A stretch of DNA of 64,000 nt from Okamejei kenojei (Eukaryota), in contig CM069154.1 in the NCBI GenBank assembly GCA_035221665.1, forward strand, positions 36,270,001-36,334,000, written 5' to 3'. Each line of letters starts with the position of its first letter. Positions within the stretch are counted from its first letter, which is position 1. The translations under genes and the position numbers were made by a program. This document shows, piece by piece, positions 35,758 through 38,786 of the stretch. The notes under the pieces were generated by a model that searched no databases, was not told the DNA's origin, and saw nothing but the letters and a program-made list of their open reading frames with translations.

Positions 35758-36169
35758 TTAGACATCTGTGATAGTCAATGTAAGTCTGCTGTTGGGAATG
35801 GGTGTCATCGACGAACCAGTGACACAGACACCGTTGCCAGTGGCAGAACTGATCGGATGCTTGATCATATCCACATAGAGGTCAGCGTCGGGGTGTTTGA
35901 AAGAATCCCAATCCAAATCCGGCTTCTGGAGATTTGGCAGGTACCGTAAACAGAACACGCAGATTTCAGGAATGTCCTGCTGATGGACGGGAACTAGGAA
36001 AGAAATGGCAAAGCCAGAGTCCGTTTCGCCATAGTGGTATGTCAAGATCCCGGTGATGCCAATGTTAGAGTTTGGGGAATTACAGAACTCCAATGTTGCA
36101 TTCTTTCCCTGAGGTATATCCTGTGGTTTTATTAATGGATTTTTCGGTGCACCTTCCTTCATATACAAA
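35758..36169 (-). CDS. Actinoporin-like (sea-anemone cytolysin fold) protein, last coding exon
   Basis: LYMKEG..PQDIPQGK..F....SNIGITGILTYHY...FAISFLVP...PDADLYVDM...GSSMT...SRLTLTI aligns by eye to equinatoxin II motifs (YFRSG, PHKVPHGK, GAVGVLAY, LAVLFSVP, ADQRMYEEL, GFMNSSGHAILEIHV). Acceptor ctcttttgcag| at 36169; TAA stop. Confidence 0.8.
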
Positions 36170-36855
36170 CTGCAAAAGAGAATAAAAATACTTAATGAGA
36201 TGGCACCATTTCTAATCCAAAATGTTAATTTTCTAATCTTTGACCAAGGAGATATATATACTTTTCCAGTTTGTCACCGAGTAGTCTATCCATGAAGAGA
36301 CCTGGTCAAGATACCTCATCTCAGTTAAAACCATTGATTTGTTCGAACTAGCCGGATTGATGAGGGAAAATTAGCTGTGTAACGATAGACTGGTAAAGAT
36401 GTGTTTGGATCAGGTACGGGCAAGTTGAATATCCGAGTAGTAGCAATTAATTGTTGGCACTGGGTAATTTGTTGAACAAGTCAGGAAGCTATGGGTTCAA
36501 ATCCAAATCGTGTGATGAGGAACTATTATCAGAGGTTCAATCTCTCAGATAAGCCATAAGTTCATAAGTATTAGGAACCGAATTAGACCATTTGGCCCAT
36601 CAAGTTGATCGCCACTCAATCATGGCTGACCTATCTCTCCCTTAAAAATATCCTTCTGTGGCAATGAATGCCACGGATTCACCACCCTCTGACTAAACAA
36701 ATTCATCCTCATCTCCTTCCTAAATTAACCTCTTTTAGTTCTGAGGCTATGACCTCTGGTCCTAGACTCTCCCACTAGTGGAAAATGTGGTCCCAAAGTG
36801 AAAGGTGCAATAAAATTGCAAACTCTTTCCTCAATGCATGCACTACTGTACTTAC

Positions 36856-36926
36856 TTGCAATATTTCAGATCGAACACTTCCGATCGATTGCTCAAAGAG
36901 AGAGTCAGGTTTCGTAAAGGCATCAT
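36856..36926 (-). CDS. Actinoporin-like protein, first coding exon (MMPLRNLTLSLSNRSEVFDLKYC)
   Basis: Acceptor tttttatttag| at 36939, ATG at 36926, donor TGCAA|gtaagt at 36856. The phase-2 join (AA+T = Asn) is in frame with the 36169 exon, giving 160 aa. RNLTLSLSNRS parallels actinoporin RKIAVGVDNES. Confidence 0.78.
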
Positions 36927-38786
36927 GTAATTCCAAACTCTAAATAAAAAGATCATTTTTTTTACACATTCATTTCCCCACAAGCATCCAAGATAACATC
37001 AAAATGATAACGGCAAAAATAACTTAAGGGACATCAAGTTTTTAAAATCCATAAAACTGCAGAAGGCAAGGATAACAATTGCAGGCAAAGTTTTTTTGAA
37101 ATCCTGGGCTAGAAATAATGAGTGACTGTAATGAGGATTTCACACAGGGTAGGTGAGAAAGAATAAAACAAGGGCTTGGGAGGAATAAGGGAGAAATTAT
37201 TTTCTTTCCCCTCTTGATCTTTGCATCTCCCCGGAGATAACATACAATCAGTAGGTGAGGAATAACTTTGAAATTGATATAAATAAAATAAAAGATATTA
37301 AAGGTCAGTAAATTTAAAACGCATTGCTCTCAATTAATTAAAAACCAAGTGAAAAATAACTAAAAAGGTCAGCGAAGCTATTTTTAAGTATGGCTACCAC
37401 CCTCAAACACCTACCATGCACTGAGTCCATACACTGCTTTTAGAGAACTAAAGAACAATTTAGAATTGTTTGTCTCAGCACAGTGATGGACCTCGTCTGC
37501 TTTGCATGCCCACCAGTTGTCCTGCATTATGCACAGTTATTTCTTTGCTTTGCCCTCTAGGTGCTTAACACTCCAAAGATGTATAGGTTTGCAGTGAATT
37601 GGCTTCACTAATACAATGTAAATTGTCCCTAGTGTGTAGGACAGTGTTAGTTGGATAGATCCCATCAGGCCCTGGAGATTTATTCATGTTAATGTTCTTC
37701 AAGAGCCCCAACACCACTTCCTTGCTGATCCCATACTGCCCTTGCATATTAGTATGCTCCACTGTCCACCGCGGTGAATACAGATGCAGTTATCACACTC
37801 CCTTAGTAGCTCACCTACATCCTCTGACAAATTCCCTCCTTTGGTCCTTCCTTCTTTTGGGTTACCCTCTTGTTTTTAATGAATGTATAAAAAGTCTTAG
37901 GATTTTATTTTAATCCAACTAGCCAAAGATAATTCATAAGGCCCCTTTGCTCGTTCACTCTAGTTATTTCCTTCTTGCTTTAAATTCCCCAAATGGCTCT
38001 GTCTGATTTTCTCTTCTTAAACCTTACAAACACTTCCTTTATCTGTCCTCCAGCATATCCTGCACTTTGCCATGGGCTCTCAGTATGGGGGACACACTGA
38101 TGCCCACACTACGCTAGAACCGCCAGCCAGTTGTCAGCATAGTCCATCTCACTCACACCTGCACAACTGGTGCAATGGGTAAATAAACTGCTAGAAGTGG
38201 CCTACATCTGACTTCATGCTTGTGCTGAAGCTTTTGATCTCAACCAGTTGCCACTGCTGTGCCTCCCCAAGTCTTGTAAGGATTTACAGCACTGACATGC
38301 AAAGCAAGTGGCTTACCCACAAATAATAATAATAATAAAAATAATATCTTTATTGTCATTATACAAAAACAACGAGATTAAGATTGCAACCTCCGCATCG
38401 ATGCTATAAAATAAATAAATACGGTAAAAGTACAAATAGGTCCATGTACACTAAGGTTAAAAATTACAGCAGCTGTCACTGTGTTGAGATAAGTCAGTTG
38501 TGCCTGTTGATTATGGGGGCAAAGACAGATTATCGGGGGATGCTTAGCAGACTGATTCAGTGCAGTTGTAGCTCTTGGGGAAAAAGCTATTTCTCAGTCT
38601 GGAAGTGTGGGCGTAAAATGCATTAATAACTGCTTCCGGTGGCGCTATGGAGGGCTAGAGGATAACGCCAGCCAGCTCCTCGCAAAAAACGGGGAAAAAA
38701 TGGGGATTAACGGACCTACCTGCTGCTGCTGCCTGCCTTCTCTGCACCGATTGTTGTGAGTGACGTCATCAGGCGCGCGACTAGTT

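What the first reader, a model, noticed from the sequence alone, without database searches (positions are those of the whole stretch)
35758..36939. Intact, divergent actinoporin-like gene downstream of DCLRE1B, lacking the pore helix and the lipid-binding aromatic cluster
Seen: two exons with canonical, phase-compatible splice sites encode an uninterrupted 160-aa protein (MMPLRNLTLSLSNRSEVFDLKYCNLYMKEG...LTITDV); the first exon is absent from the ORF track. Established: equinatoxin/sticholysin actinoporins have a beta-sandwich, an N-terminal amphipathic pore-forming helix and an aromatic SVPYDYNWYSNWW phosphocholine/sphingomyelin-binding loop; actinoporin-like proteins are known in bony fishes. 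Inference: this protein keeps the sandwich motifs but starts at the first beta-strand (no helix, no signal peptide), replaces the aromatic loop with VPVHQQDIPEIC, and has an insert (LPNLQKPDLDWDSF) and five Cys. It could be a non-lytic intracellular or mucosal family member with a new ligand specificity, possibly relevant to skin/mucus defence in cartilaginous fishes.
Basis: partly seen in the sequence, partly recalled or inferred. Interest (0 to 1): 0.8.

Follow-up and report, generated by a model that had tools for sequence, protein, structure and literature searches.

The report
Helix-less actinoporin offshoot in sharks, rays
A real, unnamed gene conserved in sharks and rays encodes a distant cousin of sea-anemone pore toxins that has lost the pore-making helix and the lipid-binding motif, so it likely works inside cells as a non-lytic binding protein for a different, untested ligand.

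Summary
The gene is real. Two coding exons with a phase-2 GT-AG intron give 160 aa. Orthologues at 73-89% identity exist in five named sharks and rays, all annotated as uncharacterized or hypothetical. Pfam and PDB sequence searches miss it. Descent from actinoporin-like proteins (ALPs) rests on other evidence. Two canonical PF06369 genes lie 84 and 102 kb away and share the intron position and phase. The profile-profile match has E 2e-5. A model built with those paralogues in the alignment matches actinoporins (Foldseek E 2e-9, VIA Z 16.8). The N-terminal helix and the P-[WYF]-D motif are absent, and 2 of 8 phosphocholine-site residues remain. Upstream exons likely exist but would add at most about 6 residues. 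Best reading: a duplicate that diverged fast, then stayed conserved, as a leaderless, acidic, non-lytic binding module. The ligand is untested. New variant of a known kind; interest 0.4.

The parts
36856..36939 (-). Coding exon A: 13 nt leader, ATG at 36926, residues 1-23 plus 2 nt (first sandwich strand)
   Evidence: matches orthologue N-termini (tblastn E 2e-9 in the window); same short first coding exon and phase-2 donor as three ALP paralogues
36170..36855 (-). 686-nt GT-AG intron, phase 2, at the same aligned codon as in the canonical ALP paralogues
   Evidence: junction-spanning proteins
35758..36169 (-). Coding exon B: residues 24-160 and stop; sandwich core, remodelled loop, 12-residue insert, second helix, shortened C-terminal part
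   Evidence: single copy in the genome
48185..48236 (-). Candidate 52-nt micro-exon whose last 5 nt would start a 166-aa isoform (6 extra residues); inferred, not shown
   Evidence: relatives P0015 and P0006 begin with the same Met-Arg-Val-Trp. One such site in 19 kb is within chance (about 2 expected, my estimate)
48876..49010 (-). Candidate non-coding first exon in a GC/CpG-rich patch, with a donor at 48875; 5' end is a guess; inferred
   Evidence: 48501-49000: GC 0.63, CpG o/e 0.59; in-frame stop and no ATG after it in the frame of exon A

Best explanation
This is an intact elasmobranch gene homologous to the nearby actinoporin-like genes; its protein is predicted to keep the beta-sandwich and second helix, lacks the pore helix and the phosphocholine motif, and likely acts in the cytosol as a non-lytic, lectin- or adaptor-like module that binds a non-choline ligand (glycan, amine headgroup or protein) on the remodelled loop and helix face. 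Shown: gene structure, conservation, homology, motif loss. Predicted: fold. Inferred: origin by local duplication, no pore, cytosolic location, new ligand.
For: Homology: same intron position and phase in 3 of 3 intact paralogues; hhalign probability 77%, E 2e-5 over 113 columns; reciprocal best non-self hits among 8,731 ORFs of a 264-kb region (E 0.0017 and 0.0034); 0 of 2000 shuffles reach the score against each of 3 paralogues; ESM Atlas first hits are PF06369 clusters (0.96, family share 49%; 0.94, share 27%). Fold: pLDDT 75.9, residues 1-11 without helix although 14 of 21 rows carry one; Foldseek FraC E 2e-9, TM 0.75; VIA Z 16.8, rmsd 2.3, 150 aligned. Constraint: ray-shark identity 73-81%, near the 76-81% of the canonical paralogue, after a stem of about 5.4 changes per site. 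Loss of function parts: 4 residues (10 in the longer isoform) before strand 1 against about 30 in actinoporins (PMC12197748 passage); 2 of 8 phosphocholine-site residues kept against 6 of 8 in P0020; 6 Tyr against 9-14 in own paralogues; pI 5.3-6.2.
Against: No ligand, location or activity was tested. The fold of the orthologue-only alignment failed (pLDDT 33, no Foldseek match), so the good model leans on paralogue rows. Atlas recognition values (2112, 1866) lie below the tool's 2300 mark. No Pfam or PDB sequence hit. The canonical paralogues in this genome are also acidic (pI 5.5-5.9), so pI does not separate them. Four of 6 orthologue rows keep a Tyr in the loop. The remodelled regions are the least confident parts of the model (block means 57-66). 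Leaderless secretion was predicted for many mussel ALPs (PMC9645577 passage), so cytosolic is not certain.
Confidence: 0.55

Rival explanations
1. It remains a weak, non-specific peripheral membrane binder like zebrafish Dr1, without pores and without a new specific ligand.
For: Dr1 binds membranes without sphingomyelin specificity or lysis (PMC8778704, PMC6231492, passages; primary paper not held). The Pro and the helix Tyr of the site are invariant, and a loop Tyr persists in 4 of 6 orthologue rows.
Against: The P-[WYF]-D membrane-binding motif, present in 12 of 14 canonical shark and ray ALPs, is absent in 7 of 7 rows in either alignment register. The replacements are invariant, which fits selection for something new.
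Confidence: 0.22
2. It is a helix-less partner that joins or caps oligomers of the neighbouring ALP paralogues and tunes their activity.
For: Linked to canonical ALPs in this genome and, judged by equal contig lengths, in 3 of 3 chromosome-scale species where both were listed. Heteromeric actinoporin pores are cited in PMC6231492 (passage).
Against: Linkage is expected from local duplication alone. Identity to the paralogues is only 24-33%. The paralogues have short helices (15 or 9 residues before strand 1) and may not form pores.
Confidence: 0.1
3. It is the binding subunit of a two-component pore system (aegerolysin or Cry34 type), or lyses by a helix-independent route as recalled for thermostable direct haemolysin.
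For: Helix-less members of the fold match the model: Cry34Ab1 Z 13.6, OlyA 12.8, RahU 12.1, TDH 9.7; aegerolysin clusters score 0.92 in the Atlas.
Against: Gene structure and sequence tie it to the ALP paralogues, and actinoporins score higher (Z 15.6-16.8). No partner gene was looked for or seen.
Confidence: 0.08
4. It is a decaying or functionless duplicate.
For: Broken ALP copies are common in this genome.
Against: Open frame, 99 of 160 positions invariant in 5 named species, identical lengths of insert and tail in all, spliced forms on Logan contigs.
Confidence: 0.03

Closest known systems
Canonical elasmobranch ALPs (PF06369; NCBI names such as 'hydra actinoporin-like toxin 7', LOC144605207), including two genes 84 and 102 kb away
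   Same: Two coding exons, same phase-2 intron, no leader peptide, sandwich core, 24-33% identity
   Different: They keep P-[YF]-D in 12 of 14 and 6 of 8 site residues (P0020), most have a 15-residue amphipathic N-terminus (helical moment 0.47-0.64 in 5 of 5 computed), and they pass Pfam; this one does none of these
Zebrafish Dr1 (teleost ALP)
   Same: Vertebrate ALP with incomplete N-terminal helix, reported non-lytic (PMC8778704, PMC6231492 passages)
   Different: Dr1 belongs to the set from which the P-[WYF]-D motif was defined and binds membranes; here the motif is gone. Its sequence was not compared here
Actinoporins FraC, equinatoxin II, sticholysin, Fav; bryoporin
   Same: Best fold matches: TM 0.65-0.75, VIA Z 15.6-16.8
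   Different: No pore helix, no aromatic cluster, acidic, has Cys, 12-18% identity
HALT-1 (Hydra)
   Same: Extension in the loop before the second helix (PMC12197748 passage), where the model places this insert; Z 13.6
   Different: HALT-1 forms pores
Fungal fruit-body lectins, aegerolysins, Cry34Ab1, nakanori
   Same: Same fold used for binding rather than as a one-chain helical pore (roles partly recalled); Z 9.8-13.9
   Different: No Pfam hit, 9-13% identity; ancestry points to ALPs, so the likeness would be convergent loss

Membership tests
Actinoporins (pore-forming) | Beta-sandwich with second helix | tested here: met
   Predicted only, with paralogues in the alignment; orthologue-only model failed
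Actinoporins (pore-forming) | About 30-residue N-terminal region with amphipathic helix | tested here: not met
   4 residues before strand 1, 10 in the longer isoform; the 15- and 40-residue basking-shark starts are not shared and have moment 0.30-0.39
Actinoporins (pore-forming) | Aromatic interfacial cluster and phosphocholine site | tested here: not met
   2 of 8 residues listed in PMC8778704 are kept, mapped by hand through
Actinoporins (pore-forming) | No cysteine (PMC5198562); basic pI (recalled) | tested here: not met
   5 Cys, pI 5.4
Actinoporins (pore-forming) | Sphingomyelin-dependent pore formation | not testable with these tools
   Needs liposome and haemolysis assays
Actinoporin-like proteins / AF domain superfamily | Homology to ALPs by sequence and gene structure | tested here: met
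Actinoporin-like proteins / AF domain superfamily | P-[WYF]-D motif | tested here: not met
   P-V-[HYC] in 7 of 7 rows; the other register gives P-E
Actinoporin-like proteins / AF domain superfamily | PF06369 at the curated cut-off | tested here: not met
   0 of 3 window frames and 0 of 4 orthologues hit any family; 3 of 3 paralogue exons pass
Actinoporin-like proteins / AF domain superfamily | Membrane binding | not testable with these tools
   Needs assay
Fungal fruit-body lectins (PF07367) | Helix-less sandwich with a glycan site | tested here: inconclusive
   VIA Z 9.8, rmsd 3.3, 128 aligned; Atlas 0.92; no Pfam hit; site residues not compared
Aegerolysin / Cry34 two-component systems | Dedicated pore-forming partner protein | not tested
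   No partner search was run

The most novel reading that the evidence does not exclude
An actinoporin-fold gene was domesticated in the shark-ray ancestor into a constitutive intracellular receptor: pore helix and lipid site removed, replaced by an invariant acidic, proline-rich surface that recognises a new glycan, lipid or protein ligand, a vertebrate counterpart of fungal fruit-body lectins or the HET-B lectin-fold recognition domain.
Probability: 0.25. Interest if true: 0.7.

Novelty: new variant of a known kind. Interest (0 to 1): 0.4.

Why it matters
It names an unannotated subfamily that Pfam and database annotation miss, and places it in an ALP gene cluster of sharks and rays on which my literature searches found no paper. 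The role of vertebrate ALPs is unresolved. One locus here holds a natural series: short helix plus motif, no helix plus motif, no helix and no motif. Comparing the three natural proteins would test what vertebrate ALPs bind. The result is of specialist interest, because non-lytic and motif-poor ALPs are already known elsewhere.

Tried and rejected
Pfam on window frames and orthologues: no hit. PDB sequence search with exon B and with the orthologue profile: nothing relevant. AlphaFold2 on the orthologue-only alignment: pLDDT 33, no fold match. Searches for relatives outside elasmobranchs: only 4 clusters; the 50% library gave one true hit and two repeat-rich proteins that I set aside. These single-family searches also missed the canonical ALPs, so absence in chimaeras and bony fish is not shown. 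Sequencing runs: no RNA holder listed, 15 of 21 rows guessed as RNA, names coded, so no tissue information. Read laying was swamped by repeats and showed no joint row for the gene or the candidate upstream exons; run X10 had no listed piece at the acceptor. dN/dS not computed: no orthologue DNA was held. Disulphide pattern rejected: one conserved Cys. Complex prediction not run, because paralogues of solved pore oligomers could pass by likeness. The tree has no outgroup, an unsettled bootstrap and a saturated stem. Earlier scan notes: none found. The primary Dr1 paper was not held. No supplements were read; sequence tables there could include this gene.

Full report
Observation. The minus strand carries exon A (36939-36856, ATG 36926) and exon B (36169-35758), joined by a 686-nt GT-AG intron in phase 2. 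The product is 160 aa with 5 Cys. Exon B has one match in the 2.76-Gb genome. Exon A starts at an acceptor, so an upstream exon should exist.

The gene is real and conserved. Exon B found 4 protein clusters among 11 candidates, with named members from Rhinoraja, Mustelus, Scyliorhinus, Cetorhinus and Chiloscyllium, all uncharacterized or hypothetical. All 6 NCBI models and 8 of 9 Logan-contig proteins of the nearest cluster read across the same junction; the ninth starts inside exon B. In 3 of 4 runs a contig piece ends exactly at 36169 with letters left over. Those runs are only guessed to be RNA, one is flagged as probably DNA, and the joint row was not shown. Of 160 positions, 99 are invariant in the 5 named species.

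The 5' end. A GC/CpG-rich patch at 48501-49000 has a donor at 48875 and is non-coding in the frame of exon A. A candidate 52-nt exon at 48236-48185 would add 6 residues, matching the Met-Arg-Val-Trp starts of P0015 and P0006. Neither join was shown, and one such site in 19 kb is within chance. No orthologue has a shared N-terminal extension or an amphipathic one.

Ancestry. Direct searches fail: Pfam and PDB sequences. The genome holds 3 PF06369 exons above the cut-off, two on the same contig 84 and 102 kb away. All 3 have a short first coding exon and a phase-2 intron at the same aligned codon as this gene. Profile against profile gives probability 77%, E 2e-5. Each profile finds the other group as best non-self hit among 8,731 local ORFs. 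No shuffle of 2000 reaches the pairwise score against any of the 3 paralogues. The ESM Atlas ranks PF06369 clusters first in both searches, though recognition values were below the tool's mark. In an unrooted tree of 24 rows the 7 divergent rows form one side of a 100/100 branch about 5.4 changes per site long, which is saturated and rough. Ray-shark identity within the group (73-81%) is close to that of the canonical paralogue (76-81%). This pattern fits fast change after duplication followed by constraint.

Fold. The orthologue-only model failed (pLDDT 33). With 14 paralogues among 21 rows, a 166-aa orthologue (P0015) folded at pLDDT 75.9 as a sandwich with one helix and no N-terminal helix. 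Foldseek's first matches are FraC and Fav, E 2e-9, TM 0.75. VIA ranks Fav 16.8, bryoporin 16.1, FraC 15.6, nakanori 13.9, Cry34Ab1 and HALT-1 13.6, a fungal lectin 9.8. The model is not independent of the alignment.

What changed. There are 4 residues before strand 1, against 15 in most canonical paralogues and about 30 in actinoporins (PMC12197748). P-[WYF]-D is absent in 7 of 7 rows and present in 12 of 14 canonical rows. Of the 8 phosphocholine-site residues listed in PMC8778704, this protein keeps 2 and P0020 keeps 6, by my mapping through; the step to equinatoxin numbering is recalled. There is a 12-residue insert and a 15-residue shorter tail. Only Cys23 is conserved. The replacements (Glu29, Thr63, Leu82, Pro91, Glu92, Ile126) are invariant in 7 of 7 rows.

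Mechanism. Without an inserting helix it cannot make an actinoporin-type pore; this follows from the mechanism described in PMC8778704 and PMC12197748. Without the aromatic cluster, choline-lipid docking is unlikely. No leader peptide is seen by inspection; no predictor was run. I commit to a cytosolic, non-lytic binding module with a new ligand on the loop and helix face (0.55). Rivals: Dr1-like weak membrane binding (0.22), modulator of paralogue oligomers (0.10), two-component or helix-independent lysis (0.08), decay (0.03).

Comparison with what is known. Non-lytic vertebrate ALPs with an incomplete helix (Dr1), sponge ALPs without the N-terminal region (Hi4), molluscan ALPs with poor site conservation and the HALT-1 loop extension are all in print (PMC8778704, PMC6231492, PMC12197748). 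A neighbour here also lacks the helix while keeping the motif. It fails the actinoporin tests and the ALP motif and Pfam tests, so I file it as an ALP-derived offshoot, not a member. Searches for actinoporin with 'cartilaginous fish', 'elasmobranch' and annotation names returned 0 papers. 'Stingray' gave 5 papers, judged unrelated from listings; searches showed none on this gene. I saw keyword passages only of PMC9645577, PMC9526159, PMC5198562, PMC8778704, PMC12197748, PMC10890737 and PMC6231492, and no supplements; the Dr1 paper was not held.

Verdict. Observation confirmed, interpretation partly supported. New variant of a known kind, interest 0.4.

Noticed in passing
G000:C24:36407801-36412548 (-), loci L002 and L012: Intact ALP paralogue with only 9 residues before the strand-1 Arg, no Cys, PYDYN loop kept, 43% identical to its neighbour, long branch of 1.49.
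   Followed up: partly
G000:C24:36388033-36389683 (+), locus L004: Canonical 170-aa ALP, 92% identical to Rhinoraja LOC144605207.
   Followed up: yes
G000:C24:36421877-36421995 (+): Frameshifted fragment of the 3' part of an ALP gene.
   Followed up: no
G000:C27:22513904-22678166: Second ALP cluster: one intact gene and several copies with stops.
   Followed up: partly
   Followed up: partly
window 38760-44606 (+) and 45604-46575 (-): Interrupted LINE-like element (ORF1, endonuclease and reverse-transcriptase pieces, label recalled) and a second fragment, lying between exon A and the candidate upstream exons.
   Followed up: no
window 61967-62939 (+) and 51449-52073 (+): Pieces resembling DNA transposases (Tc1-like; second type uncertain; labels recalled).
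   Followed up: no
window 4559-4860; 57793-58000; 58391-58894: Tandem arrays: 21-bp x14.5 in a CpG-rich patch, 48-bp x4.3, about 42-bp x13.
   Followed up: no
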